Source: Candidatus Zhuqueibacterota bacterium
Lineage (GTDB): Bacteria; Zhuqueibacterota; Zhuqueibacteria; Residuimicrobiales; Residuimicrobiaceae
Assembly (NCBI GenBank): GCA_963169875.1
Contig: CAUJEL010000040.1
Location: 16,323-80,322, forward strand
Length of the DNA: 64,000 nt
Direction of reading: 5' to 3'
How positions within the stretch are numbered: the first letter of the stretch is position 1; every line of letters begins with the position of its first letter. The position numbers were made by a program, and so were the translations under genes. The notes beneath the pieces are model-generated. The model did not search any database and was not told the origin of the DNA. It was given only the letters and a program-made list of their open reading frames with translations. This document shows, piece after piece, positions 6,626 to 58,153 of this stretch.

Positions 6626-6797
6626 TGCTCATTCCTATTCTATCATTATTTTCCCAAGAAAATTGTCGGGCGAGTCGTTACCCTTTGCAATGTTATTCTT
6701 AAAAACGATAATACTGAGGTCGATGATTTTCATCGACACGCCTAGACTTCATTCAAATCTGATCCGTTTACAACGAAACACGAGCCATTTAAAGCCA

Positions 6798-8003: not shown

Positions 8004-8040
8004 AGGAATATTTATCTGGTATTGTCACACAACTGCGATG

Positions 8041-22315: not shown

Positions 22316-22702
22316 TTGTATACTTCTCCTGTTCTGGTATTCACCTGATGCGGTGTTAACGATGGACGTAATCGTAGTTCAGTGCACCCATAGGGCGCGG
22401 GCATGCAATTACTGTGGCCCAGTTTACAAAGAATCCGATCATTCGTTGCTCATCGCCTAAATATAGCCCAAATAGTATTTTTTTTCAAGTCCTTTATGAT
22501 GCATTTTTGATCTTTGGGTCAATGACAACACCTCGCCGCTCCGTCGTCCAGCTTACCTGTATGAAAAACCTGTTCGTATGGAAATAATGCATTCCCTTTT
22601 TGGGCCGCCCATTCCGGATACATTTTTTCCAGATTTGCCTTGACTCATATCTCCTGATTGGCTATTTTTCATAAGGGTTATCACGTAAAATGGAGAAATG
22701 GA

Positions 22703-26981: not shown

Positions 26982-26990
26982 AAATCTCCA

Positions 26991-29795: not shown

Positions 29796-31289
<1,494 letters not shown>

Positions 31290-32559: not shown

Positions 32560-32612
32560 TATGGAAAAACCTCCCGATCAAAATTACCTGATGGCGGGCG
32601 GCCCCCCACCCT

Positions 32613-32701
32613 GCCGTCACCCCGGGAACGCCGGGCGCAAATTCGGCAACGGCGCTTCCAGGCTGCCGCCATCCTGCAGTCACCCCGGGAACGCCGGGTG
32701 C
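32613..32701. repeat. Two direct copies of a 23-nt hairpin-forming motif GTCACCCCGGGAACGCCGGG(C/T)GC in the xdhB-xdhC intergenic region
   Basis: 32613-32638 and 32679-32701. Each contains a CCCGG-GAACG-CCGGG stem-loop. Confidence 0.3.
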
Positions 32702-32724
32702 CAGATGGCGAACTGACGCCCGCC

Positions 32725-35004: not shown

Positions 35005-35143
35005 ACTTACTATTCCAAGCCATTTAATCTGTTCAATTCATGCCCGGATTCTATGCCAACTCAACCTGCGTATGCAAATGTATTCACCACAAGGAGTAAT
35101 TGGAATGAGCTCAAAGCGACCTCTGACACCGCGGATGAATCAA

Positions 35144-36912: not shown

Positions 36913-37614
36913 ATGCCAGGCGAAACATTCACCGGATTCTCAAAGGATGCGGTTCAATTCCTCATGGATTTGCGGGAAAACAACAATCGCACCTGGTTTG
37001 AAGCCAATAAATCCCGCTATCTACAGGAAGTTTTGCACCAGGCGCAGCGGTTTGTACTGGACTTGGGCGGCCGGCTGCAGAAAGAATATGGGGACATTCA
37101 TGCCGATCCGCGCACCAATGGCCAGGGTTCGATTTTCCGGATCTATCGCGATGTCCGTTTCAGCAAGGATAAGAGTCCCTACAAAACCAATCTGGGGATC
37201 TTTTTCTGGCACGGTAGTGCAGAACGGAATCAGCGGCCCGGGTTCTATTTCCATCTCGAAGGGGATCATTTCGCTTTGTACAATGGTGTTTACGAGTTCA
37301 CAAAAGCCGGGCTGGAACGCTATCGTCAAGCTGTGGCCAGCCCCATCATCGGCCCCAAACTTATCCAGGCTATCCGCGTGATCCAAACGGCAGGACCCTA
37401 CGTCGTGGGCGGTCACCATTACAAGCGCATCCCGCCCGGCTACGAGGTGCCCCCGGATCGCAGCGAATATCTGTGCTTCAATACCATTTACACCATGCTG
37501 GAACTGCCGCTGCTGGATGTTCTCTTCACCGCCGGCCTGGTGGACTTTTGTCTGGAGCATTATGGCAGGATGTATCCGCTGCTGCAGTGGCTGGTGGAGG
37601 ATCTGGGAATATAG
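36913..37614 (+). CDS. DUF2461 (TIGR02453) family protein
   Basis: FSKDAVQFLMDLRENNNRTWFEANKSRY N-terminal signature of this family. Ends with TAG. Confidence 0.7.
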   Translation: MPGETFTGFSKDAVQFLMDLRENNNRTWFEANKSRYLQEVLHQAQRFVLDLGGRLQKEYGDIHADPRTNGQGSIFRIYRDVRFSKDKSPYKTNLGIFFWHGSAERNQRPGFYFHLEGDHFALYNGVYEFTKAGLERYRQAVASPIIGPKLIQAIRVIQTAGPYVVGGHHYKRIPPGYEVPPDRSEYLCFNTIYTMLELPLLDVLFTAGLVDFCLEHYGRMYPLLQWLVEDLGI

Positions 37615-39401: not shown

Positions 39402-40823
39402 CTATTTCTTGATCTGTGAGATGAATTCCTCCACCTCGGGGATGCCGCCCTGGAAAATCAGATAGCCGTTTGAGGGCTCGCGCTCGGTGATCTCGCCGTT
39501 GATGGGGGTGTACATGATTTTTTTCACTTCCGCCAAATCCTTGCTCTGCCCCAGGGCCCAGCCCAGTTTGACATAAGCGACTTCCGGCAGCATGTTGGCC
39601 ATGGGCACTACGCCGAGTTCCATCATGTCGCGGCCGGTGTCGTATACATACATCTGCACATAACCCCACAAGGTCTGCACGGTCATATAGACCGCGATGT
39701 TTTTCTCCTGGGCGCGTTTCAGGGCCGGATAGAGCGGTTTGTTGACGTGCCCCAGACCGGTTCCGGCTATGATGATACCGCGATAACCGTGGTCGATCAG
39801 CGCGTCGATGATGTCCGGTTTCATATTGGGATAATAATAGACAATACTCACCTTTTCCTCGAACGCGGTGTTGATCACCACATGACGATCATTTCGGCGG
39901 CGTCTGTAATCCTGGCGCAGGGGTGTGATCTTCTCGCGACTCACCATGGCCAGGGGAATGTCGCCGATGGTGCGAAACGTGGAGCGATAGCTGGAGTGCA
40001 TCTTGCGCACGCGGGTGCCGCGGTGCAGCAGGCCATAGACATCCGAAGTCGGACCGAACATGCACACCATCACCTCCGCGATGTTGGATTCCGCGGCGGT
40101 TTTCACCGAATGCATCAGATTGAGCGCGGCATCGGATGAAGGACGGTCTGAGGAGCGCTGCGATCCCACCATGACGATGGGCACCGGCGGATTCTGCACC
40201 ATGAAGGAGAGAATTGCGGCGGTGTGGTGCATGGTATCGGTGCCGTGGCCGATGACGATGCCCTGCACACCTTTTTCGATCTCGCGGCCGATGGCCTGGG
40301 CCGTGCCGATCCACTGCTCCGGTCCCATATTCTCGCTGAAAACGCCGTAGAGCTTTTCCGTCTCCAGATTGCAGATATCAGCCAGCTCCGGCACCGAACC
40401 GTACAGTTCACCCGGCGAAAAGGCGGGAATCACCGCACCGGTGCGGTAGTCGAGCCGCGAAGCGATGGTGCCGCCGGTGCCCAAAAGTTTCACGCGCGGC
40501 TTTCGCGGTTCATAGGGGAATTCCTTTTCCGGGATTTTATAGTGCGCCTCCTTGCGTCCCAGAATCTCGATGGCGGTGATGGTCTCCGCGCGAATGCCGA
40601 TATTATAGCCCGAACGGAGTTTGATGACAACATGCAGGGGATCCGCGGTTTCCGAACGCGGCAGGACTATGCCGGCATAATTCCCTTTCAAGGTCGTTAT
40701 CTTGACATCGCTCCAGATCGGCGTGTTGAAATTCTGCAACGCCGCCAGAGCTTCACCGCGATACCCTTTATAAGCTTCTTGCGTGGACATGGGCTCAATT
40801 CCTGCCTTCTGATACGTGTTCAT
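39402..40823 (-). CDS. gatD: Glu-tRNA(Gln) amidotransferase subunit D (archaeal-type, asparaginase-domain)
   Basis: ~95-aa GatD-specific N-terminal domain (NYAGIVLPRSETADPLHVVIKLRSGYNIGI). Asparaginase domain with LLGTGGTIAS and GIVIGHGTDTM. Confidence 0.75.
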   Translation of the reverse strand: MNTYQKAGIEPMSTQEAYKGYRGEALAALQNFNTPIWSDVKITTLKGNYAGIVLPRSETADPLHVVIKLRSGYNIGIRAETITAIEILGRKEAHYKIPEKEFPYEPRKPRVKLLGTGGTIASRLDYRTGAVIPAFSPGELYGSVPELADICNLETEKLYGVFSENMGPEQWIGTAQAIGREIEKGVQGIVIGHGTDTMHHTAAILSFMVQNPPVPIVMVGSQRSSDRPSSDAALNLMHSVKTAAESNIAEVMVCMFGPTSDVYGLLHRGTRVRKMHSSYRSTFRTIGDIPLAMVSREKITPLRQDYRRRRNDRHVVINTAFEEKVSIVYYYPNMKPDIIDALIDHGYRGIIIAGTGLGHVNKPLYPALKRAQEKNIAVYMTVQTLWGYVQMYVYDTGRDMMELGVVPMANMLPEVAYVKLGWALGQSKDLAEVKKIMYTPINGEITEREPSNGYLIFQGGIPEVEEFISQIKK

Positions 40824-43978: not shown

Positions 43979-45883
43979 TCAAACCATCTTCTTAACGCGT
44001 GCAGCCAACTGACTCGCATCAGTACGGCCTGCATATAAATCCATCATGTGTCCCATGAGCCAGCGCCAACGCGCTGCAATCTCTGTGCTTGAAACCGTGG
44101 ACAGCAATTTCATCGCATCCTTCAGCGCGTTTTCAAGGTCTTCAGCCGGCAATGGCGTCTGCCACGATTCCCACATCATTTCCTGATCCAGCAGCCATTT
44201 CTCCATCGCAAGGAGAACCCCTTCCTTGTACAGCTTTCCAGAGGCGATGGCCTGCAATAGCGCGGCCATAAAGTCGGGCGTCAATTGCTGGGTTTCGAAG
44301 CTCTTTTTATGCAGCCGCTTCGGATAGTGGGTGAGAATCACTGCAGCCAGTCCGGGCGCCACGCCCCATTCTTTCACAGCCCGCGCAAAGATCGTCGCAT
44401 ACGGGGAGCAGGCCAGCGGTTTGATGGTGTCCTGGGGCAGCGCCAGACTCTGATACCAGGCTTCGCGCTCCCAAACCGGTTGCGGCAGTGTGGCGCGAAT
44501 GCGTTCGATACGATCCACCGTGATGCGTTTGGGCGGCAGATCGGTGTCCGGATACATGCGATCCGGTCCCGGGAGAATCCGCTCAAAGCCGTTGGTGCCA
44601 TCTTCCAGGGCCTGCCGCGTTTCGGAAGGAATGCCGATGGTCGCTTCCCGGGCGCGGATAATAATCTCCCGGGCGCCCATCTCCGCATCCGCGGGCGGCC
44701 CCCACACCAGGACCAGCGTGTCGTCCTCTGTCGCGTTGAGGATTTTGCGCAGATTCAGCCATTCCGAGCTGGCCAGCGTCTCGCCGGGCGAATCCGAGTG
44801 GACGATGTTGGGCAGCGTCGTCAGGCAGGCGATAACGCGGACGCGGTCGGATATCTCGCGGGCGAAATAGGTGTCGGTTTGGGTTTGCCAGCGCAGCAGC
44901 CCGCGGAAGCCCTGCAGCACCACGCCGTGGACGTCCATGCCGCCGGCGATGGCCTGTGAAATCGGATAGAACCGCGTCTTGCGCAGCAGCTTGTTGACAT
45001 TCTCGTGATGGCCTTTGCAGGTCTCCGCCGTGATGCCGCGCTTGTTCAATTCATCGCGCAGCCGCAGCAGATTCCACTGCCGCATGGCCTCATTGTAAGT
45101 GAGGAGCGGGATTAAGGGAATCCGCGAGACGCCTTTGATTTCGATGCGTGTGCCGCCGGTGACGCTGACATTGACATCCTGCCGCGCCGCGCCAATGCCC
45201 GTGCGCACCCGGCCGGTGGAACGCACGAGGCGCCGCAGCATCTGCGCCACCTCAGCGACTTCCTGCGGCGTCTTCATCTCCGGCGCAGTCACGGTCTCGA
45301 TCAGCGGCATGCCGAGGCGGTCGGTGATGTAAACGCGGCGATGGCCGGCATCGCTCACCTCACGGCAGGCATCCTCCTCCAATCCGAGTTGAATGATGTG
45401 AATCATGCGATCTTTATAGGGGATGGCACCATCCACGCCGACGATGGTCGTACGCTGAAAACCCGTGGGGATGCTGCCGTCGAGGTACTGTTTGCGCGCG
45501 ATATGCAATTCATCCACCAGCACGCAGTTGTAGAGCATGGCGATGGCCAGCGCATTATCCAGCGCTTGTTCGTTGAGTTCAAAGGGCGGCGTATCATCCA
45601 TTTCGTAGGTGCACACGGTTTCACGGTTGATCTGATAGATGATCTCTTTTCGCGTCTTGAACTCCATCAACGCAGTACCATCATACTCTCCCAACTCGGA
45701 TAGCGTGGGACGCATGTGGCGCAGAATTTCCGCATCATAGTCGTCGCTGTAGCGGCCGGCTGGACAGCGGCAGAAGAGTTTTTTATCGGTGAAAAGTTGT
45801 TGATGGATTTCCAGTCCGGATTTGAATCCAACCGCTTGATAATCCTTTTCGTGCATCTCTTCGAACGGCTTAAACATGAACAT
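43979..45883 (-). CDS. gatE: Glu-tRNA(Gln) amidotransferase subunit E (archaeal-type)
   Basis: N-terminal GFKSGLEIHQQL...KLFCRCPAG GatB/GatE catalytic motif. 634 aa with a GatE-specific insertion domain and a C-terminal GatB/YqeY-like tail. Confidence 0.8.
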   Translation of the reverse strand: MFMFKPFEEMHEKDYQAVGFKSGLEIHQQLFTDKKLFCRCPAGRYSDDYDAEILRHMRPTLSELGEYDGTALMEFKTRKEIIYQINRETVCTYEMDDTPPFELNEQALDNALAIAMLYNCVLVDELHIARKQYLDGSIPTGFQRTTIVGVDGAIPYKDRMIHIIQLGLEEDACREVSDAGHRRVYITDRLGMPLIETVTAPEMKTPQEVAEVAQMLRRLVRSTGRVRTGIGAARQDVNVSVTGGTRIEIKGVSRIPLIPLLTYNEAMRQWNLLRLRDELNKRGITAETCKGHHENVNKLLRKTRFYPISQAIAGGMDVHGVVLQGFRGLLRWQTQTDTYFAREISDRVRVIACLTTLPNIVHSDSPGETLASSEWLNLRKILNATEDDTLVLVWGPPADAEMGAREIIIRAREATIGIPSETRQALEDGTNGFERILPGPDRMYPDTDLPPKRITVDRIERIRATLPQPVWEREAWYQSLALPQDTIKPLACSPYATIFARAVKEWGVAPGLAAVILTHYPKRLHKKSFETQQLTPDFMAALLQAIASGKLYKEGVLLAMEKWLLDQEMMWESWQTPLPAEDLENALKDAMKLLSTVSSTEIAARWRWLMGHMMDLYAGRTDASQLAARVKKMV

Positions 45884-46402
45884 ACTTTTGAACTCGCTGT
45901 AATGGGGTTTATAAATTGATCATTTTGAGGATTCAACCGTGTTTAAAAAACGCTGCCTGCAAATCGCCCTGCACCGTCATGAGGCGGCCAAGGGCTTCAA
46001 TCCGAGCTTTGCGCATGGCTGCTCGCATCTGAAGCACGATATGCGACTCTAAGATAAGATGAATTAGTATAAATTCAAAAGTTTTTATCATCACAGACCA
46101 TAACAAATAAAAATGTTGGAATAAAAAAATGACAAGATGGGTATTAGAATATAGAGAATTGTTTCGGAAATACGAAATTGTATTACACCCGCAACAATTC
46201 TTGTGACAAAACCGTCAGAGGAGACGGTTCCAGAATTCCCCCCAAAAATCAGATGCTGTAATCGTGATTGCATTCCAATCTGCGGATTGTGGTACCTGCA
46301 GAAAAAAGGCAATCACGGAATGGATTTGTACAACCCCTAATCAACCAGTTAATACCCTAATTAGCTCCAGAGAAGTGTATATATACAGAGCAGGAGTCAA
46401 AT

Positions 46403-48007
46403 ATGAAAAAGGTTAATGTAAAATCGCTTGCACTGTTTGCCCTCGTGGCATTTTATGTGCATTTGGCCGCGCCAGGCACTGTGACGGCGCAGCAGTTTGA
46501 GTTTGATGGCTGGAATTACAACGGCAGCCATTCAGTCTATAATTATACATTTACATCCGGTACACAACCGGCCATCAGCCATAGCGGTTTACAGGGATTT
46601 TGCGTGGGCTCGGAGGATATCATTTCCGTAGAGTTGTCTTTGAATGGCGCAACGTATAATCCTGTTTCTTCAGAAATAATCATCAAAACAAATAGCCAGG
46701 AACCCTTGTGCCTGGCTGATTTCCCGGCACTGAAGTTTAATCAGGGCTTTCAGGATGGGCAAACGATTAATTTTCGCCTGACGTTGAACGGGTACTTTCC
46801 CCCGAAGATGGGGCAAGGATGGTGGAAGGGCGGCACGACAGGCGCCTGCTTTGAGATACAGGTGCCCGACTGCGATCAGACCAGCGCCAATCCAATGATA
46901 GATATCGAGAAAGCTGTTAATGGAGAGGATGCGGACGCCCCAACCGGCCCCATGATCCCCATCGGCAGTGCTGTTAACTGGACGTATGTGGTCACCAATC
47001 CCGGCACTGTTGCGCTGTCTAATGTGACCGTGGTTGATGATATGGGTGTGGTTCCGGTTTATCAATCTGGAGATTTGAACAACAACGATTCGCTTGATAC
47101 AGATGAAACCTGGATTTACACCGCGTCGGGCATCGCTGTTCAAGGCCAATATAAAAACATCGGCACAGCAACGGGCACCTTTGATGACCAAACCGTGCGC
47201 GATGATGACCCGGCGCATTATTTCGGCATTGCACGAAGCGCACCTGGCATTAAAATCGTCAAGTATGTCAACGAGGAAGATGCCAATGAGCCCACTGGTC
47301 CTGTTGTAACAGTCGGTTCAACCGTGACCTTCACTTATGTCGTCACCAATACCGGCAACGTGCCGCTCGCCGATGTCTCTGTGGACGACGACAAGCCGGG
47401 CGTCAATCCCGCGTACCAATCAGGAGATGCCAATGAGGATGGCCTCCTGGACACGGATGAGACCTGGATTTATACGGCAACCGCCGCCGCCGTGGAAGGC
47501 CAATACAAAAACATCGGTACAGTGACGGGTACCTATGAAGACCAAACAGTAAACGATGATGATCCGGCCCACTATTTCGGCGAATACGAGACGGGTTGTG
47601 TCGATGGCACGGTTTACAGCAATGGTCAACCCCAGGCGAATGTTTTGGTACGCCTCGAAACACCCGGCCGTAAAGCGGCCAAGCAGCACACCGACGGCAA
47701 TGGTTACTATCGTTTTGATAATGTCATCCGCGGGTTTGAGTACACCCTCACGGTGAACGGCCAGCCGGAACTGACGCGCACCGTGGTGGTAGATGATCAG
47801 TTGGCCTGCCAGACCCAGGATCTCTTCGGCGGCGGCTGCAAGCCGGTTTTCGCCCTGTACCAGACCTGGTACGGCAACGCAGAAAACGATTCCACCCTGC
47901 GTTACTGGGCCACATCCAACAAAGGCGGTATAACCGATACATCCGTGGTTGGATTTTACGATTCTCACGATGAAAAAATCATGGAGTACCATGTGCTGCT
48001 GGCCTAG
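46403..48007 (+). CDS. N-terminal portion of a large T9SS surface protein (signal peptide, two DUF11-type repeats, CarbopepD_reg-like domain, start of a GH99-like domain), ending at an in-frame TAG
   Basis: AGGAG RBS. Signal peptide MKKVNVKSLALFALVAFYVHLAAPGTVTA. Tandem repeats IDIEKAVNGEDADAPTGP...QGQYKNIGTATG. YQTWYGN motif. Stops at TAG 48005-48007, which lies inside a 10-bp palindrome GGCCTAGGCC. Confidence 0.6.
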   Translation: MKKVNVKSLALFALVAFYVHLAAPGTVTAQQFEFDGWNYNGSHSVYNYTFTSGTQPAISHSGLQGFCVGSEDIISVELSLNGATYNPVSSEIIIKTNSQEPLCLADFPALKFNQGFQDGQTINFRLTLNGYFPPKMGQGWWKGGTTGACFEIQVPDCDQTSANPMIDIEKAVNGEDADAPTGPMIPIGSAVNWTYVVTNPGTVALSNVTVVDDMGVVPVYQSGDLNNNDSLDTDETWIYTASGIAVQGQYKNIGTATGTFDDQTVRDDDPAHYFGIARSAPGIKIVKYVNEEDANEPTGPVVTVGSTVTFTYVVTNTGNVPLADVSVDDDKPGVNPAYQSGDANEDGLLDTDETWIYTATAAAVEGQYKNIGTVTGTYEDQTVNDDDPAHYFGEYETGCVDGTVYSNGQPQANVLVRLETPGRKAAKQHTDGNGYYRFDNVIRGFEYTLTVNGQPELTRTVVVDDQLACQTQDLFGGGCKPVFALYQTWYGNAENDSTLRYWATSNKGGITDTSVVGFYDSHDEKIMEYHVLLA

Positions 48008-48028
48008 GCCTCTGATATCGATGCGCTG

Positions 48029-49708
48029 GTGGTGGACTGGTACGGCATGGATTCCTTTGAAGATGGTCCGACGCATAAACTGCTGAACACGGTGGAACGG
48101 CTTTACAAGCAATACCATCATCTTGGTTTCAGTTTCAACATCATTGTTTCCTATAATGAAGAAGCCTCAGGCGATCTGGCGGCGAATTTAAAGTTCCTGG
48201 CGGATTCTATCCTGACGCACCCCGGCTATTATGGGACCTTTGAGAAAAAACCAAAACCCGTGTTTGTTCATACACATCACAGCGAATTCGCAGAACAATT
48301 TCTGGCGTTGGCCAAAATATACCTGCCCAGCGATGTGCAGATACTGCTGAATTATGAAGAGGCCAATCTGGCTCTGGCGCCCCAGGTAACGGGCTTTTAT
48401 CCCCACCTCACCGATGCCGAGGACATTCATGATCCCCAAGGCAGAGAATGGGGCGAAAAGTACCTCACGGATTTCTACAACTCGGACACCAGAAATATGC
48501 CACTGCAAGTCGGCGGAACCTGGCCCGGATTGGACGACCGCCAGTGGGTGCAAGGCAGAGGGCTGTATGTAGATCGCCAGGACACCATGGTTTATGACAA
48601 GACCTGGGAGAAGGCGTTCGAGAATCAGCCGGATTGGATGCTCATTCAGTCCTGGAATTCGTTCAACCAGACCACCCAGATCGAAGTGTCCGAGCAGGAA
48701 GGTTACAAATTCGTCAAGATGTCGCGCAACAAGGCGGTCTTGTGGAAATCCGGCTGCGCCCGCGAAGTGGATGACCTGGGCTTGACGGTCCCGCAAGCGG
48801 TTCTGGAAGCCCGTACCCGCGGCATCGACAGTTTGTATGTCGAACAGGCTTTGTTGGAATTCTTCCAGCGTAACTATGACCAGGCGTTGGCGATTCTCGA
48901 CATTGCAGGACCTGGCCCGGAGCAAAGTCAGCCGGTGAGCGACCGCGATGATCAGCTGGTTTTTGTGGAAGGGTCTGACACCAATAAAAAACAGAACTGG
49001 GACAATGCGGTGGATGGAGAGGTGAACGGATGGAAAGCCACCACCACGGCCAAGTGGAACGGCGGTGCGGGAAATACCTACGCCATCTTAAAATTTGCCG
49101 ATCAGGGCAAATATCTGTTCAACAGCGTCTATTTGCAGACCGACAACGGCACGGATGACGATGCCTACAGCAGCCGTCAGGCGACCGACGTCGAAATCCT
49201 GGTTTCCACAACCGGCACCAATCCCCAGGATTTTCAATCCGTGATACGTTTCCAGCCGCGCGATGGCGCCATGCGGATCTACAAATTAAACCGCTACGTT
49301 ACCGCGGCCTATGTCAAGATCGTTCTTCACGGCCCGGACTATGGCCAGGGTGGATGGGTTCAGGTGGTTGAATTCGGTGTTGCAAGCGATGGCAAATATG
49401 CAGCCACGCCGGTGACCGAGACTGCAGCGGTTGCTGCGATTCCGCTGTCGTTCAGTCTGGAACAGAATTACCCCAACCCCTTTAACCCGGGCACGACGAT
49501 CCGTTATGATCTGCCGGAGCAGGCGAGGGTCGTGTTGAAGATCTATGATCTGACCGGCAGAGAGGTCGCCACGCTGGTGGACGAGGTTCAGGAAGGCGGG
49601 CAGCATACTACGACCTGGAATGCATCCTCCCTTGCGTCCGGCACCTATCTCTATCAACTGCGCGCGGGTGCCAATACCGCCGTGAAACGGATGACCCTCG
49701 TGAAATAA
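48029..49708 (+). CDS. C-terminal portion of the same protein (rest of the GH99-like hydrolase domain, discoidin-like domain, T9SS CTD)
   Basis: Same reading frame as 46403..48007, 7 codons after the TAG. It begins with GTG, and has no RBS and no signal peptide even though it ends in a CTD (LEQNYPNPFNPGTTIRYDL...GTYLYQLRAG). The module QTDNGTDDD...YVKIVLHGP is paralogous to the one in the ubiquitin cargo protein. Confidence 0.6.
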   Translation: MVDWYGMDSFEDGPTHKLLNTVERLYKQYHHLGFSFNIIVSYNEEASGDLAANLKFLADSILTHPGYYGTFEKKPKPVFVHTHHSEFAEQFLALAKIYLPSDVQILLNYEEANLALAPQVTGFYPHLTDAEDIHDPQGREWGEKYLTDFYNSDTRNMPLQVGGTWPGLDDRQWVQGRGLYVDRQDTMVYDKTWEKAFENQPDWMLIQSWNSFNQTTQIEVSEQEGYKFVKMSRNKAVLWKSGCAREVDDLGLTVPQAVLEARTRGIDSLYVEQALLEFFQRNYDQALAILDIAGPGPEQSQPVSDRDDQLVFVEGSDTNKKQNWDNAVDGEVNGWKATTTAKWNGGAGNTYAILKFADQGKYLFNSVYLQTDNGTDDDAYSSRQATDVEILVSTTGTNPQDFQSVIRFQPRDGAMRIYKLNRYVTAAYVKIVLHGPDYGQGGWVQVVEFGVASDGKYAATPVTETAAVAAIPLSFSLEQNYPNPFNPGTTIRYDLPEQARVVLKIYDLTGREVATLVDEVQEGGQHTTTWNASSLASGTYLYQLRAGANTAVKRMTLVK

Positions 49709-49727
49709 ACTCTCAATCAACGAACCA

Positions 49728-49768
49728 TAAAAAAAAGGCCGCGTAGATGCGGCCTTTTTTTTATCTCT
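49728..49768 (+). terminator. Rho-independent terminator
   Basis: AAAAAAAAGGCCGCGTAGATGCGGCCTTTTTTTTAT: a GC stem flanked by an A-tract and a T-tract, which could be bidirectional. Confidence 0.7.
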
Positions 49769-49794
49769 TGACTCTTATACGCTTCTTTAGTATC

Positions 49795-50454
49795 ATGAAA
49801 AAAGGGGGTAAATCGGAGGTATTTGTGCATCAGCTGCAGCAACTCTTCGAAAATAACCTGCGATGGGCGCAACGGATCAAACAGAACGATCCGGAGTTTT
49901 TTTCCAGACTATCCCGACAGCAAAACCCGGAATATCTGTGGATCGGCTGTTCTGACAGCCGCGTCCCCTCCACGCAAATTGTCGATCTCTTACCCGGGGA
50001 AATATTCGTCCATCGCAACATCGCCAATGTGGTGGTGCACACGGATCTCAATTGCCTTTCCGTGATTCAGTATGCGGTTGAACGGCTTAAGGTAAAACAC
50101 ATCATCATCTGTGGTCACTATGGATGCGGCGGGATCCGGGCGGCGTTGGAGAACCGCAGTCACGGTTTGATCGACAACTGGCTGCGTCACATCAAAGATA
50201 TTTATCGCTGTCATCAGGACAAAATCGATGCCCTGCCGGATGAAACAGCGCGGCAAAACCTGCTCTGTGAATTGAACGTGATCGAGCAGGTCGCCAATGT
50301 CTGTCACACGACCATCGTGCAGAATGCGTGGAATGCAGGCATGGACCTGACTGTCCATGGATGGATCTACAGCATTGATGACGGCATCCTCAAAGACCTC
50401 AAAGTGGCCGTACGCCAACTGGACGATATTTCTGTCACCCACCGGTTGAAATAA
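49795..50454 (+). CDS. Beta-class carbonic anhydrase
   Basis: LWIGCSDSRVP and HYGCGG zinc-ligand motifs. The start is probably MKKGGKSEV at 49795, right after the terminator. Confidence 0.85.
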   Translation: MKKGGKSEVFVHQLQQLFENNLRWAQRIKQNDPEFFSRLSRQQNPEYLWIGCSDSRVPSTQIVDLLPGEIFVHRNIANVVVHTDLNCLSVIQYAVERLKVKHIIICGHYGCGGIRAALENRSHGLIDNWLRHIKDIYRCHQDKIDALPDETARQNLLCELNVIEQVANVCHTTIVQNAWNAGMDLTVHGWIYSIDDGILKDLKVAVRQLDDISVTHRLK

Positions 50455-50500
50455 TAAAAGCGGAACAATCTTGTAAAAATGTTATTTGGAGACAAGAATC

Positions 50501-51793
50501 ATGAAAAACCGGATTGTCCTGTTGATGTTCTGTTTGACCACCTGGCTCGTGGCACAAGAAGAGTCAGGAAAAGCCCGGCGTATGGCCTGGTTCCAGAATG
50601 CACGTCTCGGCATCTTTATCCATTGGGGCATCTATGCGGTGAACGGCATTGATGAATCGTGGTCGTTTTACAATGGATATATCCCCTATGCGGAATACAT
50701 GAAGCAGGCCTCCGGATTCACGGCTTCCCGCTATGATCCCGACGCCTGGGCGCAGCTGATCGCCGCCAGCGGCGCACGCTACGCCGTCCTGACCAGCAAA
50801 CATCACGATGGCATGGCGCTGTGGCCGACGCAGGCTAATGATTTGCATGTAGTGCAAAGGACACCGGCCGCCAGGGATTTGATCAAGCCCTTCTGTGAGG
50901 CGATGCGCCGCCACGATCTCAAAGTAGGGCTTTATTTTTCCCATCTCGATTGGTCCCACCCGGACTATCCCTTTTTCACCCGCACAGAGAAACGTTATGA
51001 AAACGATCCACAGCGCTGGTCTCGATTCCTCGCCTTTCGCGAGAAACAGATCGAAGAATTGGCGCACGCCTATCATCCCAACCTGTTGTGGTTCGACGGC
51101 GACTGGGATTTCGACGCCGAACGCTGGCAGTCGGAATCCTTGCGGGAAAAAATCGATAGCTGGCTGCCCCATGTTATCGTCAACGCACGCATCAATGGAT
51201 ACGGTGATTACGAAACGCCGGAACAGGGTGTTCCCATCACCCAACCGGCGGCGCCCTTTTGGGAACTCTGCATGACCATGAACGATTCATGGGGATATCA
51301 GGGGAACGATAAAAACTATAAAACGCCTCACCAGATATTGCAGATTCTGGTGGATTGCATAAGCATGGGCGGAAACCTGCTCCTGGATATCGGGCCCCGG
51401 GCCGATGGGACCATTCCGGAAGAACAACAGGCGATACTGAAGGAAGTAGGGCGCTGGACCCATAAACATCAGGAAGCAATCTATGGGACGTTATCCGGAA
51501 TCCCCAAAGACCATTTTTATGGCCCGACTGCTTTGTCGAAGGACCGGCAGATTCTTTATCTATTTCTTGACGCGGCGCCCAAAGGCCCCCTCTTTATCAA
51601 GGGTTTGAAGAATCGCGTCAACCGCGTCTGGGTGGTTGGCAACGGCACCAGGTTATCTGCACAAGTGCTCATGAAGCAGTATTGGAGTTCGCTGCCGGGC
51701 ATCGTGTACATCACCGTGCCGGAGGAGGTGATGGATCCAGCCATCACGGTGGTGGCCGTGCTGCTGGAGGGTCCTGTCGAGCTGCAGAAATGA
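50501..51793 (+). CDS. Alpha-L-fucosidase (GH29), secreted
   Basis: Signal peptide MKNRIVLLMFCLTTWLVAQ. The GH29 signature ARLGIFIHWGIYAV and HHDGMALWPT. Confidence 0.85.
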   Translation: MKNRIVLLMFCLTTWLVAQEESGKARRMAWFQNARLGIFIHWGIYAVNGIDESWSFYNGYIPYAEYMKQASGFTASRYDPDAWAQLIAASGARYAVLTSKHHDGMALWPTQANDLHVVQRTPAARDLIKPFCEAMRRHDLKVGLYFSHLDWSHPDYPFFTRTEKRYENDPQRWSRFLAFREKQIEELAHAYHPNLLWFDGDWDFDAERWQSESLREKIDSWLPHVIVNARINGYGDYETPEQGVPITQPAAPFWELCMTMNDSWGYQGNDKNYKTPHQILQILVDCISMGGNLLLDIGPRADGTIPEEQQAILKEVGRWTHKHQEAIYGTLSGIPKDHFYGPTALSKDRQILYLFLDAAPKGPLFIKGLKNRVNRVWVVGNGTRLSAQVLMKQYWSSLPGIVYITVPEEVMDPAITVVAVLLEGPVELQK

Positions 51794-53973: not shown

Positions 53974-56900
53974 TTAGCGCAGCAGCAGCATCTTTTGCCC
54001 GGTAATCACCTGGCCATCGACGCGCAGCTGACAATAATAGACACCCGAAGGCAAAGACCGATGGGTATCATCATCGCCCTGCCACATGATAAGATGATCG
54101 CCCGCAGCGACCTGGCCATCGACCAAAGTATTCACCTTGCGGCCGCGTAAGTCAAAAATATCCAGACGAACCACACCCGAACTTTGCAGCTGATAGGATA
54201 TCCTCGTGCCGGCGTTGAACGGATTGGGGTAATTGGCGTGGAGCATGTGACTGCCGGGCTGCTGGCCGCTTTCCGGCGTTGCCACGTCCAGGTCGTAATT
54301 GCCACCGATGACCAGCCACTTTGGATACCGCGCCCCGGTGGACAGGGTAAGTTCCTGCAGCGTCATCGATGCAATATCACATATCAAAAGCCTGGCATCG
54401 CTGAAGCGGTCGACGACAAACTGCCGGTCATCCGGTGAAAAAGAGGGGCGCTGCACCTGGCGGCCGGGAAAGGCAATTCCCTTGTCGTCATTGGGCTGAT
54501 TGAAATCATGAATGACGATGTCCCAATTGTTCGCCTCGATATGGCTGTAGATGATGACATCCGGATCCGTGGAGCTGTACTGCACATTGCCCGCATCAAC
54601 GCCATCCGGCTGCGCCGGCAGCATGGCGATGATGCGCGGCAGGTCCCCGCTGAGATCAATCTCACCCATGCTCCACCAGCTGCGCACACCGCCGCCGGCG
54701 AGTGATATCTCATTATAAGCGTCGAACGCCAGGCGCGGATACTTGGTATTGGGCGACCATGAGATCACATCGGGATATTGAATGGTATTGCGCGTGATGC
54801 CCGGCTGCGTACTGGGCAGCTCGAGGGTGATCGGGTAGATCTGATCACCGATCAGGAAATAGATGCGGTTGTCATTGGCATACGCGGAGGTGAAAGCGAG
54901 AAAATAATTGTCGCGCGTGACCGCCACATTCCAGATGTCACCCGGCTGCTGGACATAGATATAATCAAACACCTCATAGTTGTAGGTATACGGTATGCCG
55001 GAAATGGTCAGGCGTGCGATATAGCCGTCCTGGTTAACAAAGTAGAGATATCCCCCGTCCGCGGTAGCCGTGAACTGGCTGAAGTTGTTGTTTTTAGCCT
55101 GTACATACACATCGGAGAAATAATAATCCTGGCCGTCACTGAGATTATACATGCCGACGCGCTGATCATCGCGGACAAAAGCGATCCACTGATTGCCGCC
55201 GCTGGTGGCTCTGACATTGTCATCCTGGAGGGGATCAGTACCGCCGCCGCCTTCGGTGATCTGCACCTGGTCAAAAGCACTTTGTACGGCCTGGACTTCG
55301 GCGCTGCTGTAGAGATCGGTGGCGCTCTGCTGCAACGCCCGCCGCGCATCGAGGAATTCCGATTGCCTGGTCAGGTACGACTTTAATGCACGATAATAGA
55401 TCCGCTCCGTTTTTTCGCGGCCGATCTGATTGGCGATGAGATAAGAGGCGCGGTTGATGATGCCGCAATTGGTATGAACGCCGCCTTGATCTTCCTGGGT
55501 ATCATAATAATCGCTCATCCTGGCGGGCAAGGGGCTTAAAACGGCGGGATTGCCCGGATTGGCAATATCGCGCAGCGCTGAACCGCCTCCGGATCGGATG
55601 ATATCTTCTCCCATAAACCAGTCATCGCGGTCGACCATGGCGCCGAAAAAGTCCGAAATGGCCTCGTTCAAGGCGCCCGATTGATCCTGATAGATGAGAT
55701 TGGCGGAGTATTCAGTGACGCCGTGGGTATATTCGTGCGCCGCAACATCCAATGCCTGGGCCAGCGGCTTGAACTTGTTGTTGCCGTTGCCCCAAAACAT
55801 GGCGCGCCCGTTCCAATAGGCATTATCCATGGCTGCGCCGTCTTCGGTGACATTGACCACGGAAATAAGCGTGGAAGCCTTGTCGTCAATGGCACGCCGT
55901 CCATGGGCATTCTGATAATATTGATAGGTCGCGCCGAGGTTGTACAGAGCGGATACAGCAGCAGGATCATTCCAGTATGCGGCTGAAGTCGACGTGACAT
56001 AATAAAAATTCGCATAATCGCTGGGATCGTTATTCTGCAGATCCAGGATCAGCATCCCGCCGCTCGGGTTTTCGGGCAAGTTGGCAGCACCACCGGAGAG
56101 CTCATTGACATCGCTGAGCAGATAATAAGTACCCTGCTGTTCATAGGCGCGGAACGGCCGCGTCACGCCGCGAAGGTCGGTGCCGGAAGCATTCACCACG
56201 CCTTCATAGGCGGTATTGCATAGCTGATGTCGCAATTCGCCGCTCTGGGCATCGATGAACAGGGTATAGTTTTCTCGCACATTGGCATAGAGATCCACCT
56301 GCCACACCAGATGGGGTTGCGCCTGCTTGTCGATCCAGATGGCCTTTCCCACGCGTGGCTCCGGAATTTGCAGCAGTTTTTGAATGCGGGGCTCGATGGG
56401 CTTTAAAAGTCCGCGCATGTGCAGATAGGCACGGCCAGCCTGCAAGGCCTGATCTGCAGAGAGCTGTGCATCGGTGCTGGTGATGGCACGCGGCGTGTTG
56501 GCATAGCGGCCGTTCACGGCGTAAACCTCATCCTGTGCATTGATGTGCACATAGAGATCATTGGCCCAGACCGGCACACCCAGATGATGCTGCTGCAAAC
56601 GGACATGGCGGTGGCCCAACTCATCGGTTTCGCAGCGCCACGCCTGCAGCTCTGCAACGGGTTGATCCAGTCCCAACTGAGCAGCAAACGTGTCCAGCCA
56701 GCTCAGGGCGAGCACCACAGCCGCTGATTTGGCAAGTGTGGAGTTGATCTGCACCCTGGCAGGGGATACTTGCTGCAATTGTGCTGCTGTGCCGAGGCGT
56801 CCGCAAAGGAACGCGAGAGTGCCATTGGGTGCCATGGCGACGGAGGTTGCGACGAGTCCACGGCGCGCCAGAGAATACTGTAACGCCTCAGCCGGGCGTT

Positions 56901-57114
56901 GATCGCGGCTGAGGCGGCCAACGATTTTGTGCGAGGCCCGCAGTGAGGCAGCGTGCTGATGCAGGGGATCAAGGTTGATGAATGCCGGAAACGGACGCTG
57001 GACAGCGGGCAAAAGCTGCGTTTTGCCGCCAGCGTTTACATCATGCCGCAACGCAGCCAAGGCGGACAGAAAAAGGCACAGCATCAAGGACGCAACCAAT
57101 AATACTTTTTTCAT
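53974..57114 (-). CDS. Secreted M4 (thermolysin-like) metalloprotease with N-terminal propeptide, C-terminal beta-propeller-like region and T9SS CTD
   Basis: Signal peptide MKKVLLVASLMLCLFLSALA. HEXXH motif in VAAHEYTHGV. GALNEAISD third-ligand motif. CTD HANYPNPFNAGTRISYQL...GVYYCQLRV. Confidence 0.85.
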   Translation of the reverse strand: MKKVLLVASLMLCLFLSALAALRHDVNAGGKTQLLPAVQRPFPAFINLDPLHQHAASLRASHKIVGRLSRDQRPAEALQYSLARRGLVATSVAMAPNGTLAFLCGRLGTAAQLQQVSPARVQINSTLAKSAAVVLALSWLDTFAAQLGLDQPVAELQAWRCETDELGHRHVRLQQHHLGVPVWANDLYVHINAQDEVYAVNGRYANTPRAITSTDAQLSADQALQAGRAYLHMRGLLKPIEPRIQKLLQIPEPRVGKAIWIDKQAQPHLVWQVDLYANVRENYTLFIDAQSGELRHQLCNTAYEGVVNASGTDLRGVTRPFRAYEQQGTYYLLSDVNELSGGAANLPENPSGGMLILDLQNNDPSDYANFYYVTSTSAAYWNDPAAVSALYNLGATYQYYQNAHGRRAIDDKASTLISVVNVTEDGAAMDNAYWNGRAMFWGNGNNKFKPLAQALDVAAHEYTHGVTEYSANLIYQDQSGALNEAISDFFGAMVDRDDWFMGEDIIRSGGGSALRDIANPGNPAVLSPLPARMSDYYDTQEDQGGVHTNCGIINRASYLIANQIGREKTERIYYRALKSYLTRQSEFLDARRALQQSATDLYSSAEVQAVQSAFDQVQITEGGGGTDPLQDDNVRATSGGNQWIAFVRDDQRVGMYNLSDGQDYYFSDVYVQAKNNNFSQFTATADGGYLYFVNQDGYIARLTISGIPYTYNYEVFDYIYVQQPGDIWNVAVTRDNYFLAFTSAYANDNRIYFLIGDQIYPITLELPSTQPGITRNTIQYPDVISWSPNTKYPRLAFDAYNEISLAGGGVRSWWSMGEIDLSGDLPRIIAMLPAQPDGVDAGNVQYSSTDPDVIIYSHIEANNWDIVIHDFNQPNDDKGIAFPGRQVQRPSFSPDDRQFVVDRFSDARLLICDIASMTLQELTLSTGARYPKWLVIGGNYDLDVATPESGQQPGSHMLHANYPNPFNAGTRISYQLQSSGVVRLDIFDLRGRKVNTLVDGQVAAGDHLIMWQGDDDTHRSLPSGVYYCQLRVDGQVITGQKMLLLR

Positions 57115-57126: not shown

Positions 57127-57771
57127 CTAATATCTGCGCAGATCGTGTTTGAGCAAAATTTCTCCCGTATCAGCGGCCACCATGAATTCCCATCGTATAG
57201 CGCCGCTTGCAAGTATGAGGTGATAAGCCGGTCTCAAGTCCGCTCCGGCCGCGTACCAGCAGGGTTTGTTTTCTTCTATGGTCTGAAGCGGCAAATCTGC
57301 ATGGTGCGTTCGCGCGATTTCTGCCGCCTTTTCGGTGCTGATGAGAAACGCTCCATTTTGCTTGCTGCTGGCATGGTATTGTCCGTTGATCAAATAGAGC
57401 TGTGACTCTTTATTGATGTGCACAACAAGTTCATCATTCCATATCGGAATTTTCTCATGCAGGCGGGCGTAGCGCAGATGATGAAATCCCATCTCATCCT
57501 GTTCATCTTCCAGCAGCAGCAGTTCGTTTCGGGGCTGTTCAATGCGGAACAGGGCGGTGTTTGCGCCTAAAAATTCCAGGACCATTTCAGCGCGATTTTC
57601 CTTTTTTATGCCCGATAAATCCAGTAAAGACCCTTGAATCCATTCGGGCGTGCCATACGCAACATGGGTTTTGATCTGCAGCGAATTCGGATTCTCAATT
57701 GCCATGTTTTTGATCTTGTTATGTGAACACCCGAGCATAAAAAGGATCATGAATAAACATGCAGCGCGCAT
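57127..57771 (-). CDS. Lipoprotein resembling an M4 protease propeptide (FTP/PepSY-like), encoded just upstream of the M4 protease
   Basis: Lipobox LFMILFMLGCS. Its sequence parallels the N-terminal pro-region of the downstream protease (ELLLLEDEQDEMGFHHLRYARL..., compare CETDELGHRHVRLQQ). Confidence 0.55.
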   Translation of the reverse strand: MRAACLFMILFMLGCSHNKIKNMAIENPNSLQIKTHVAYGTPEWIQGSLLDLSGIKKENRAEMVLEFLGANTALFRIEQPRNELLLLEDEQDEMGFHHLRYARLHEKIPIWNDELVVHINKESQLYLINGQYHASSKQNGAFLISTEKAAEIARTHHADLPLQTIEENKPCWYAAGADLRPAYHLILASGAIRWEFMVAADTGEILLKHDLRRY

Positions 57772-58153
57772 AGGACAGTCTCCCTCGCAGCAAAACACAC
57801 AACGTGCGATGGTTTGAGTAGACTCTGATCGCGGGAATCGGCGGGAAGCAAATTCGCAGAGTGCCAGGCCCGGTGATGCGGCCTCATGAAACCTGTCAAA
57901 TTCTCTTCACGAGTACCCCTGTTTCGTCCATAATATAATTCAACAACATGAATAATGCAATTTTATTATACCCTGTGATGCGGCACTTGCAGAGGAATCT
58001 ATTAGCAGATGTCCAGTGGAGATTGCGTCTTTGATGGCCCCGGTGCAGGCATACTTTTGCAGCCCCAGCCCGGGTGGCACGCGCGACTTGTTGATATTTT
58101 TCAGCAACGATCCCTTGCATTGACGAGATTCGTCGAACTCCGCTTCCTTGTGT

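What the first reader, a model, noticed from the sequence alone, without database searches (positions are those of the whole stretch)
46403..49708. Single in-frame TAG (inside the palindrome GGCCTAGGCC) splits a ~1100-aa T9SS surface protein
- ORFs 46403..48007 and 48029..49708 are in the same frame, separated only by TAG at 48005-48007 and 7 sense codons.
- The second ORF lacks an ATG, an RBS and a signal peptide, yet it ends in a T9SS CTD.
- A GH99-like motif series (YQTWYGN…/…IDALVVDWYG) straddles the stop.
- So this is one gene carrying either a nonsense mutation or sequencing error, or a programmed TAG readthrough. TAG is used as a genuine stop elsewhere in the window (37612-37614).
- The stop lies inside a 10-bp palindrome.
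Basis: seen in the sequence. Interest (0 to 1): 0.5.

Follow-up and report, generated by a model that had tools for sequence, protein, structure and literature searches.

The report
Recent nonsense mutation in secreted glycosidase-like gene
A single G-to-A change has turned a strictly conserved tryptophan codon (TGG) into a TAG stop in the middle of an otherwise intact gene for a large secreted glycosidase-like protein, so this is an ordinary, very recent gene knockout (or, less likely, a base-calling error), not a recoding signal.

Summary
TAG at 48005-48007 lies inside GGCCTAGGCC and separates two same-frame ORFs that together encode one ~1101-aa protein: signal peptide, DUF7507 repeats, GH99-like barrel and a T9SS C-terminal sorting domain.

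- **One domain, cut in two.** The stop cuts the GH99-like domain. The Pfam score rises from 26 to 45.9 bits when the halves are joined.
- **Ancestral codon is Trp.** In two syntenic relatives the gene is one uninterrupted ORF (1200 aa at 93% identity; 963 aa at 70%). The codon there is TGG and the flanking codons match. The 35 closest of the 55 aligned homologues all have Trp in this column.
- **The palindrome is a by-product.** The ancestral sequence, GGCCTGGGCC, is not palindromic.
- **The stop is young.** The downstream half shows dN/dS 0.07, no further lesions and no excess of lineage-specific amino-acid changes.
- **TAG is a normal stop here.** It ends 8 other genes in the window, and it ends GatD at the same position in all three genomes.
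- **No readthrough signal.** No stimulatory RNA structure, tRNA or Pyl machinery was seen.
- **The base call is reproduced.** An independent Logan assembly (ERR10643344) carries the same TAG.

Verdict: a recent amber mutation giving a nascent pseudogene. A consensus error is the main rival, and programmed readthrough is unsupported. Interest is low.

The parts
46403..49708 (+). Whole disrupted gene: 1101 sense codons plus one internal TAG, ending in TAA
   Evidence: frame; 93% identity to the intact 1200-aa orthologue P0156/P0157 from PGIKIV... to the end.
46392..46396 (+). AGGAG ribosome-binding site, 6 nt before the ATG at 46403
   Evidence: read directly from the sequence.
46403..46492 (+). 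Sec-type signal peptide (MKKVNVKSLALFALVAFYVHLAAPGTVTAQ)
   Evidence: Judged by eye (basic n-region, hydrophobic core, VTA-Q); no predictor was run.
46416..47045 (+). Lineage-specific N-terminal region, not homologous to the N-terminal domain shared by the two orthologues
   Evidence: protein alignments; blastn homology to L002 breaks between 46416 and 47045.
47240..47551 (+). DUF7507 (CLIPPER_2/DUF11-type) repeat. A second, weaker copy lies upstream at about 46898-47236.
   Evidence: PF24346, 73 bits, 2 stretches, best aa 280-383. (TIGR01451).
47603..47812 (+). CarboxypepD_reg-like beta-sandwich; the match is below the Pfam threshold
   Evidence: PF13620, 24.6 bits against a cut-off of 32.3. 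The same family is precomputed on orthologues.
47828..48910 (+). GH99-like (beta/alpha)8 domain, cut by the stop after its first ~59 residues
   Evidence: PF16317, 45.9 bits on the joined domain. BtGH99 4ACY/4ACZ at E about 1e-6, aligned over chain residues 44-339; 563 homologues.
48005..48007 (+). In-frame TAG replacing the conserved Trp codon TGG (G to A at 48006)
   Evidence: TGG in L002 and L004, with the four codons after it and, in L002, the three before it identical. W in the 35 closest homologues.
48001..48010 (.). Palindrome GGCCTAGGCC, created by the mutation. It holds the only CCTAGG in the window and one of only 8 CTAG.
   Evidence: The ancestral GGCCTGGGCC is inferred from L002.
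48047..48049 (+). Internal in-frame ATG, used by the Logan gene caller as the start of a 553-aa product. GTG at 48029 is the first possible start. No signal peptide follows either.
48968..49162 (+). DUF7402-like region; weak match, below threshold
   Evidence: PF24135, 18.9 bits against a cut-off of 27.
49469..49705 (+). T9SS type A C-terminal sorting domain
   Evidence: PF18962, 41.7 bits. (TIGR04183, 42.9 bits).

Best explanation
The window carries one gene for a large secreted protein that would be sorted by the type IX secretion system (T9SS). Its layout is: signal peptide, lineage-specific N-terminal region, DUF7507 repeats, beta-sandwich, GH99-like barrel, DUF7402-like region, T9SS C-terminal domain.

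A single G:C to A:T transition at 48006 changed a strictly conserved Trp codon (TGG) to amber (TAG).

- **Effect on translation (inferred).** Translation stops after 534 residues. That product has the signal peptide but only the first ~59 residues of the barrel, and no sorting domain. It can cross the inner membrane but cannot be handed to the T9SS and cannot form the catalytic domain.
- **Downstream part (inferred).** Any product re-initiated at GTG 48029 or ATG 48047 lacks a signal peptide and the first strand/helix unit of the barrel, so it would stay in the cytoplasm.
- **Status.** The gene is therefore a null allele, a nascent pseudogene. The event is very recent, because nothing else in the gene has decayed.

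Shown here: the single-gene architecture, the ancestral TGG, the lack of decay, and normal use of TAG as a stop. Inferred: loss of function, and the mutational route. The changed base is the inner C of CCAGG on the minus strand. That is the classical 5-methylcytosine (Dcm-type) deamination context, but methylation in this organism is unknown.
For: - **One domain spans the stop.** GH99 scores 26 bits on the second half alone and 45.9 bits joined, with the alignment across the stop. BLASTP alignments to about 35 homologues run straight through the stop position.
- **Ancestral codon.** In a MAFFT alignment of 55 homologues the stop column is W in 37, including all 35 closest (motif ILLAW[AS]xIDAFVVDWYG).
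- **Intact syntenic orthologues.** P0156/P0157 (1200 aa, 93% identity) sit in MTHFR-DUF5981-C92-GatE-[gene]-carbonic anhydrase-fucosidase. P0159 (963 aa, 70% identity) comes from GCA_002327255.1 and shares the same upstream neighbours.
- **Codon-level comparison.** CTG CTG GCC TGG GCC TCT GAT ATC in L002 against CTG CTG GCC TAG GCC TCT GAT ATC here. The outgroup L004 also has TGG.
- **No decay.** The 566 codons after the stop have no further stop or frameshift. Against L002, dN/dS is 0.073 downstream and 0.144 upstream, compared with 0.07-0.16 for five neighbouring genes.
- **No relaxed selection on this lineage.** With L004 as outgroup, the window lineage has 42 synonymous and 15 non-synonymous changes downstream of the stop. 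The intact L002 lineage has 44 and 13 (Fisher p = 0.83).
- **TAG is a normal stop.** It ends 8 other genes of 41. GatD ends ...ISQIKK-TAG in all three genomes. C92 ends at TAG in this window and in L002, and at TGA at the same position in L004.
- **Reproduced base call.** The Logan assembly of run ERR10643344 is 6601/6601 identical to the window across the gene, TAG included.
- **Not a degraded assembly.** Of 41 predicted genes in the window, only this one is interrupted. The nine or so genes shared with L002 align without frame disruption.
Against: - No read-level data could be examined. The Logan contig and the NCBI contig (178,581 bp) probably derive from the same sample, so they are not independent samples of the population.
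- The complete lack of decay is equally what a base-calling error or a functional readthrough would give.
- No conspecific intact allele was found in the protein collection or in JGI metagenomes. The polymorphism cannot therefore be shown directly.
Confidence: 0.78

Rival explanations
1. Sequencing or assembly (consensus) error, or a minority variant promoted into the consensus. On this reading the organism's true codon is TGG and the gene is intact and functional.
For: - The gene shows no other sign of inactivation: dN/dS 0.07, no second lesion, and equal lineage-specific non-synonymous counts.
- The source is an uncultured-organism assembly, seen in only one run plus the NCBI record.
- The site is a CCWGG context. 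From my own knowledge, some long-read basecallers miscall such sites when they are methylated.
Against: - Two different assemblies give the same base, and 6601/6601 identity.
- The other 40 predicted genes in the window show no interruption, and those shared with L002 align without frame disruption, so the assembly is not error-ridden.
- 258 CCWGG sites are intact against only 6 CCTAG/CTAGG, so there is no sign of systematic CCTGG to CCTAG miscalls.
- Substitution errors in a short-read consensus are much rarer than real nonsense polymorphisms. This is a prior estimate, not measured here.
Confidence: 0.14
2. The TAG is translated, either by programmed or leaky readthrough, a suppressor tRNA, or pyrrolysine-type recoding. 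A full-length ~1101-aa protein would then still be made and exported by the T9SS.
For: - The downstream half is perfectly preserved and in frame.
- The rest of the genome could not be searched for tRNA(CUA) or pylTSBCD.
Against: - The in-frame stop is not conserved. Both syntenic orthologues and the 35 closest homologues encode Trp.
- From my own knowledge, no natural TAG-to-Trp decoding is known in bacteria, and near-cognate reading of UAG gives mainly Gln, Tyr or Lys.
- TAG ends 8 other genes in the window, at positions shared with orthologues. In-frame extensions after those TAGs are short or have negative coding scores.
- The 121 nt around and after the stop fold no better than shuffles (z = +1.15; 173 of 200 shuffles fold at least as well).
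- The window holds no tRNA and no Rfam element.
- The gene is not a methylamine methyltransferase, the usual Pyl context.
Confidence: 0.04
3. There are two genuinely separate, functional genes: a 534-aa secreted repeat protein and a 553/559-aa protein with the T9SS C-terminal domain.
For: - Automatic gene callers annotate two genes.
- In-frame GTG and ATG codons lie shortly after the stop.
Against: - One Pfam domain is split between them.
- The second product would carry a T9SS sorting domain but no signal peptide.
- No homologue among 150 representatives is split at this site. The one short homologue, P0019, starts 16 residues before the Trp and still contains it, so it looks like a fragment or a miscalled start.
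- Single-domain homologues begin the domain at the HYxGWYG strand, upstream of the stop.
Confidence: 0.02

Closest known systems
Amber (TGG to TAG) nonsense mutations giving nascent pseudogenes. The classical example is G:C to A:T hotspots at the inner cytosine of CCAGG (Dcm sites) in E. coli lacI (Coulondre et al., Nature 1978; cited from memory).
   Same: - A single G:C to A:T transition converts a sense codon to TAG.
- The mutated base is the inner C of CCAGG on the minus strand (ancestral plus strand GGCCTGGGCC).
- The gene is otherwise intact.
   Different: - Whether this organism methylates CCWGG is unknown. No methyltransferase or Vsr gene was seen in the window. CCWGG is neither depleted nor enriched (ratio about 1.1).
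- Plain cytosine deamination or a replication error would explain the change equally well.
Glycoside hydrolase family 99 endo-alpha-mannosidases (Bacteroides thetaiotaomicron GH99, PDB 4ACY/4ACZ; human MANEA, 6ZDC)
   Same: - The joined domain passes the Pfam GH99 gathering score (45.9 against 33).
- It aligns with BtGH99 over chain residues 44-339, including the YxxWYGN strand, the VxWWG/VDWYG strand and the ...TQIE motif.
   Different: - Very distant from BtGH99 (phmmer E about 1e-6).
- The two glutamates of the GH99 NEWHEG motif, which I recall as the catalytic pair, align with S and Q here (NSFNQT). They are not conserved in the closest subfamily either (WND/SFNR/Q).
- The conserved Trp hit by the stop aligns with Ile in BtGH99.
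- The activity is therefore unknown. This is a GH99-like domain, not a demonstrated endo-mannosidase.
T9SS type A cargo proteins of FCB-group bacteria (N-terminal Sec signal plus C-terminal Por_Secre_tail domain)
   Same: The reconstructed protein has a signal peptide and a C-terminal TIGR04183/PF18962 domain. Several other genes in the window have the same kind of CTD.
   Different: In this allele the signal peptide and the sorting domain lie on opposite sides of a stop codon. Neither fragment has both of the signals that T9SS export needs.
Programmed UAG decoding (pyrrolysine in methylamine methyltransferases; TAG-recoded phages; suppressor tRNAs)
   Same: Only the surface appearance is shared: an in-frame TAG with intact coding sequence downstream.
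   Different: - The stop is not conserved in orthologues.
- The ancestral residue is Trp.
- TAG is used as a normal terminator.
- There is no downstream RNA structure.
- The gene lies in a chromosomal housekeeping context.

Membership tests
Pseudogene by nonsense mutation | Orthologues and homologues carry a sense codon at the stop position, one nucleotide away from the stop | tested here: met
   TGG in L002 and L004 against TAG here, with matching flanking codons. W in the 35 closest homologues.
Pseudogene by nonsense mutation | The two ORFs together correspond to one uninterrupted gene at the same genomic position in relatives | tested here: met
   1200-aa and 963-aa single ORFs downstream of GatE in L002, L003, L004 and L005.
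Pseudogene by nonsense mutation | The fragments cannot function alone: a domain is split and the export signals are separated | tested here: met
   The GH99-like domain is split after ~59 residues. The signal peptide is only on fragment 1 and the CTD only on fragment 2. Loss of function itself is inferred.
Pseudogene by nonsense mutation | Signs of relaxed selection or further decay (expected only for old pseudogenes) | tested here: not met
   dN/dS is 0.073 downstream of the stop. Counts are 42 synonymous/15 non-synonymous here against 44/13 in the intact lineage (p = 0.83). No second lesion. The lesion is therefore recent, or not real.
Pseudogene by nonsense mutation | The stop is really present in the DNA of the organism (read support) | not testable with these tools
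   Only assembly-level agreement is available: the Logan contig equals the window, 6601/6601.
Programmed stop-codon readthrough or recoding (including pyrrolysine) | The in-frame stop is conserved at the same position in orthologues | tested here: not met
   Orthologues have TGG.
Programmed stop-codon readthrough or recoding (including pyrrolysine) | A stimulatory RNA structure lies downstream of the stop | tested here: not met
   The fold of 47990-48110 gives z = +1.15, and 173 of 200 shuffles fold at least as well.
Programmed stop-codon readthrough or recoding (including pyrrolysine) | Decoding machinery (tRNA with CUA anticodon, pylTSBCD) is present in the genome | not testable with these tools
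   The 64-kb window has no tRNA and no Rfam hit. The rest of the genome is not available.
Programmed stop-codon readthrough or recoding (including pyrrolysine) | TAG is avoided or ambiguous as a terminator in the genome | tested here: not met
   8 other genes of 41 end in TAG, at conserved C-termini.
Glycoside hydrolase family 99 (PF16317) | Sequence match above the Pfam gathering score | tested here: met
   45.9 bits against 33 on the joined domain. PF16317 is precomputed on the orthologues.
Glycoside hydrolase family 99 (PF16317) | Catalytic glutamate pair of the NEWHEG motif | tested here: not met
   The motif aligns to NSFNQT here. The pair is variable in the closest subfamily. Which residues are catalytic is recalled from the literature, not verified here.
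T9SS type A cargo | C-terminal Por_Secre_tail (TIGR04183) domain at the very C-terminus | tested here: met
   PF18962 at 41.7 bits and TIGR04183 at 42.9 bits, on residues 488-562 of 566.
T9SS type A cargo | N-terminal Sec signal peptide on the same polypeptide | tested here: not met
   In this allele the signal peptide is on the 534-aa fragment only. The condition would be met in the reconstructed or ancestral protein.

The most novel reading that the evidence does not exclude
The TAG is real and is nevertheless decoded at a useful level in this uncultured FCB-group bacterium, for example by a suppressor tRNA or by leaky termination. Full-length protein would still be exported. That would explain why the 566 downstream codons show no decay. 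It would be a natural case of a tolerated or suppressed amber codon at a Trp position in a bacterium that otherwise uses TAG as a stop.
Probability: 0.03. Interest if true: 0.6.

Novelty: already known. Interest (0 to 1): 0.12.

Why it matters
It matters little beyond annotation.

- **Annotation.** The two ORFs should be annotated as one disrupted gene (pseudogene, internal stop), not as two proteins. The second, 'signal-less T9SS' protein is an artefact of the split.
- **Method.** It is a clean example of separating a fresh nonsense mutation from recoding. The tests used were orthologue codon, synteny, lineage-specific dN/dS, and terminator usage in the same lineage.
- **If the allele is real.** It documents ongoing loss of a secreted GH99-like surface protein in a natural population. 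It occurs at a CCWGG-type site, which could be followed up as a deamination hotspot.
- **The gene family.** The GH99-like T9SS/DUF7507 proteins, which lack the canonical GH99 glutamate pair, are uncharacterised. They may deserve biochemical attention independently of the stop.

Tried and rejected
- A homologue search with the joined domain, with X at the stop, returned no hit. The cause is probably the word filter or the X. The later HMMER scan and the W-repaired query found many hits.
- Two exact-pattern scans of JGI metagenomes, with R at the mutated base (35-nt and 24-nt patterns), found nothing. No conspecific TGG allele could be shown.
- A genome-contig scan with P0157 found nothing. Because the pattern FENQPDWM also occurs in the window protein, the source genome is apparently not in that collection.
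- An alignment-based genome scan was swamped by T9SS CTD matches (QNYPNPFN). It gave no information about the GH99-like domain or the taxon.
- No paper mentions the run accessions.
- **Second recoding candidate.** The same-frame TAG pair 57798..57127 / 57114..53974 was considered because both ORFs have FTP motifs. It was rejected: the second gene has its own GGAG, ATG and signal peptide, and the first looks like a small lipoprotein (LGC lipobox).
- **Palindrome as a signal.** Rejected. It arises from the mutation, can form at most a 3-bp stem, and the region is not structured.
- **Systematic CCTGG to CCTAG miscalling.** No sign of it: 258 CCWGG against 6 CCTAG/CTAGG, and no other broken gene.
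- **Structure prediction.** Not run. The Pfam and PDB sequence matches already fix the fold and the position of the stop.


Full report
**1. The observation**

The sequence shows TAG at 48005-48007 within GGCCTAGGCC (48001-48010). ORF 46403..48007 (534 aa, ATG) and ORF 48029..49708 (559 aa, GTG) are in the same frame. Translating 46403-49708 gives 1101 sense codons with one internal stop...EYHVLLA*ASDIDALVVDWYG....

The first ORF has an AGGAG 6 nt upstream of its ATG and a typical signal peptide (by eye). After the stop the first possible starts are GTG 48029 and ATG 48047. The Logan gene caller used the ATG. Neither is followed by a signal peptide.

Same-frame neighbouring ORFs are frequent in this window, with 12 pairs. 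Being in frame is therefore not remarkable on its own. What is special is that one protein domain spans the stop.

**2. One gene, one domain**

- Pfam on the halves gives DUF7507 repeats and a CarboxypepD_reg-like segment upstream. Downstream it gives a sub-threshold GH99 match (26 bits, starting at profile position 84), a weak DUF7402 match and a T9SS Por_Secre_tail domain.
- On the joined domain the GH99 score rises to 45.9 bits (cut-off 33), and the alignment runs across the stop.
- phmmer against PDB aligns the joined domain with Bacteroides GH99 endo-alpha-mannosidase (4ACY/4ACZ) over chain residues 44-339.
- NCBIfam confirms the T9SS type A sorting domain.

**3. What relatives have at this position**

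- A HMMER scan of 1.84 billion representatives with the downstream part of the domain found 563 homologues. In the top hits the match starts hundreds of residues inside long proteins.
- BLASTP of the joined region against these shows alignments running uninterrupted through the stop position in about 35 of the closest.
- In a MAFFT alignment of 55 homologues the stop column is Trp in 37, including all 35 closest. The motif is ILLAW[AS]xIDAFVVDWYG.
- The 90% cluster of the second half contains two intact 1200-aa proteins, P0156 and P0157. They read ...KIMEYHILLAWASDIDALVVDWYGMDSFEDGPTHK....
- Their contigs (Logan SRR26159228/9; L002, L003) are syntenic with the window: MTHFR, DUF5981, peptidase C92, GatE, [the gene], carbonic anhydrase, alpha-L-fucosidase. 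Flanking DNA is 87-92% identical.
- A more distant orthologue, P0159 (963 aa, 70% identity, GCA_002327255.1; L004), has the same upstream neighbours and is also intact.
- At the codon level L002 has CTG CTG GCC TGG GCC TCT GAT ATC. The window has CTG CTG GCC TAG GCC TCT GAT ATC. L004 also has TGG.

The lesion is therefore a single G to A transition in a conserved Trp codon.

**4. Age of the lesion**

- From PGIKIV... to the end the window protein is about 93% identical to P0157. It has no further stop or frameshift.
- Nei-Gojobori dN/dS against L002 is 0.144 for the conserved part upstream of the stop and 0.073 for the 566 codons downstream (dS 0.27 and 0.45).
- Five neighbouring genes give dN/dS 0.07-0.16 at dS 0.28-0.45.
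- With L004 as outgroup, the window lineage has 42 synonymous and 15 non-synonymous changes downstream of the stop. The intact L002 lineage has 44 and 13 (Fisher p = 0.83).

No relaxation of constraint is detectable. The stop is either evolutionarily very young, not real, or read through.

**5. Is TAG decoded here?**

- By a codon-usage gene model, 41 genes in the window end in TGA (21), TAA (10) and TAG (10, including this one).
- TAG-terminated genes end where their orthologues end. GatD ends ...ISQIKK-TAG in all three genomes. Peptidase C92 (501 aa) ends in TAG in the window and in L002, and in TGA at the same position in L004. The Cys/Met PLP enzyme ends in TAG within two residues of its L004 orthologue's TGA stop.
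- In-frame extensions behind the other TAGs are short or have negative coding scores.
- The only other long same-frame continuation after a TAG (57798..57127 followed by 57114..53974) is two genes. The second has its own GGAG, ATG and signal peptide.
- The 121 nt around and after the stop fold no better than shuffled sequence (z = +1.15).
- The window holds no tRNA gene and no Rfam element.
- The ancestral residue is Trp. No natural bacterial TAG decoding that I know of inserts Trp.

Programmed readthrough or recoding is therefore not supported. It cannot be formally excluded, because the rest of the genome could not be searched.

**6. Is the base real?**

The Logan assembly of run ERR10643344 (L001, 6601 bp) is 100% identical to window 44761-51361, TAG included. 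The same proteins are on record from an NCBI contig of 178,581 bp. Two assemblies thus agree, although probably on the same sample.

- Of the 41 predicted genes in the window, only this one is interrupted. The nine or so shared with L002 align without frame disruption.
- There are 258 CCWGG against 6 CCTAG/CTAGG, so there is no hint of systematic miscalling.
- No conspecific intact allele was found.

I rate a genuine mutation at about 0.78, a consensus artefact at about 0.14, readthrough at about 0.04 and two functional genes at about 0.02.

**7. Consequence (inferred)**

The 534-aa product keeps the signal peptide, the repeats and only the first ~59 residues of the (beta/alpha)8 domain. It lacks the T9SS sorting domain. 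Any product re-initiated at 48029 or 48047 has the sorting domain but no signal peptide and an incomplete barrel. T9SS export needs both signals on one chain, so the allele should be null.

Single-domain homologues start the domain right after their signal peptide at the HYxGWYG strand. This confirms that the domain begins upstream of the stop.

**8. Mutational route (speculative)**

G to A at 48006 is C to T at the inner C of CCAGG on the minus strand. That is the Dcm-type 5-methylcytosine deamination context, known as an amber hotspot in E. coli lacI (own knowledge). No methyltransferase was seen in the window and CCWGG is not skewed (ratio about 1.1). An ordinary G:C to A:T transition explains the change equally well.

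The change creates one of only 8 CTAG in 64 kb (37 expected from a Markov model) and the only CCTAGG. A young lesion in a CTAG-avoiding genome fits that picture.

**9. What the gene is**

It is a GH99-like T9SS cargo protein. The closest named relatives are annotated as coming from candidate division KSB1. GatE homologues point to KSB1, Ignavibacteriae and Aminicenantes-type MAGs. The taxon is not settled.

The GH99 NEWHEG motif aligns to NSFNQT here and is variable in the closest subfamily. The Glu of ...TQIE is invariant. The enzymatic activity is therefore unknown.

The N-terminal ~215 residues of the window protein are not homologous to the N-terminal domain shared by both orthologues. The number of DUF7507 repeats also differs between genomes. 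The 5' part of this gene is evolutionarily plastic.

**10. Verdict**

The single-gene, nonsense-mutation reading is supported. The readthrough and palindrome ideas are not. This is an ordinary phenomenon of low interest. The practical outcome is an annotation fix: one disrupted gene rather than two proteins.

Noticed in passing
window 29802-31289 (+): A 495-aa protein has a signal peptide ending ...LTANLFA. It is followed directly by a ubiquitin domain 92% identical (69/75) to eukaryotic ubiquitin (PF00240, 108 bits), ending RIRA instead of RLRGG. After that come an SdrD_B domain, a region resembling the C-terminal part of the target gene (QTDNGxDDD...VLVS) and a T9SS CTD. It looks like a recently acquired, secreted eukaryote-type ubiquitin. 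It is far closer to ubiquitin than Bacteroides fragilis BfUbb, which I recall at about 63%.. The exact sequence is not in the protein collection.
   Followed up: partly
window 43979-45883 (-) and 39402-40823 (-): GatE and GatD, the 'archaeal-type' GatDE Glu-tRNA(Gln) amidotransferase, sit in a bacterium with T9SS cargo proteins. They are conserved in the syntenic relatives. Close GatE homologues (65-80% identity) are annotated in KSB1, Ignavibacteriae, Aminicenantes and Bacteroidota MAGs..
   Followed up: partly
window 46416-47045 (+), compared with L002 8428-9354 and L004 10001-10455: The N-terminal ~215 residues of the target protein are unrelated to the N-terminal domain (AAGGNSGAIWTT...QDANHYEIGE...) shared by both orthologues. 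The number of DUF7507 repeats differs (2 here, 3 in L002, 1 in L004). The 5' module has been replaced in the window's lineage..
   Followed up: partly
window 57127-57798 (-) and 53974-57114 (-): A small putative lipoprotein with an FTP propeptide motif ends in TAG. It is followed in the same frame, 12 nt later, by a 1046-aa M4 (thermolysin-like) protease with its own FTP motif and an FlgD_ig-type C-terminal domain. The pair looks like a second 'TAG split', but it is two genes..
   Followed up: yes
whole window: CTAG is strongly avoided: 8 occurrences against 37 expected from a Markov model and about 250 from base composition. It is the most depleted palindromic tetramer. CCTAGG occurs only once, at the mutation..
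   Followed up: partly
window 5171-12266, 25656-29477 and 31627-36544: A cluster of purine/pyrimidine-catabolism-type genes. It includes two xanthine-dehydrogenase-family molybdoenzymes with 2Fe-2S and FAD subunits, XdhC, a dihydropyrimidine-dehydrogenase-like flavoprotein, amidohydrolases, a carbamoyltransferase and an M20 peptidase..
   Followed up: no
window 22658-25594 (+): A 978-aa protein whose only Pfam match is a C-terminal RyR domain (PF02026, 51.8 bits)..
   Followed up: no
L002 7512-7979; L003 2557-4233: Gene-content differences between the window and its ~90%-identical relative. The relative has an acetyltransferase between GatE and the target gene, and a DUF1570/TPR gene between GatD and MTHFR. 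Both are absent from the window, and the acetyltransferase is also absent from L004..
   Followed up: no
protein collection (cluster of window:46403-48004): The 534-aa fragment is filed in a 90% cluster whose representative and other members are unrelated 48-50-aa peptides (MWVGGGG...). This looks like a clustering artefact..
   Followed up: no
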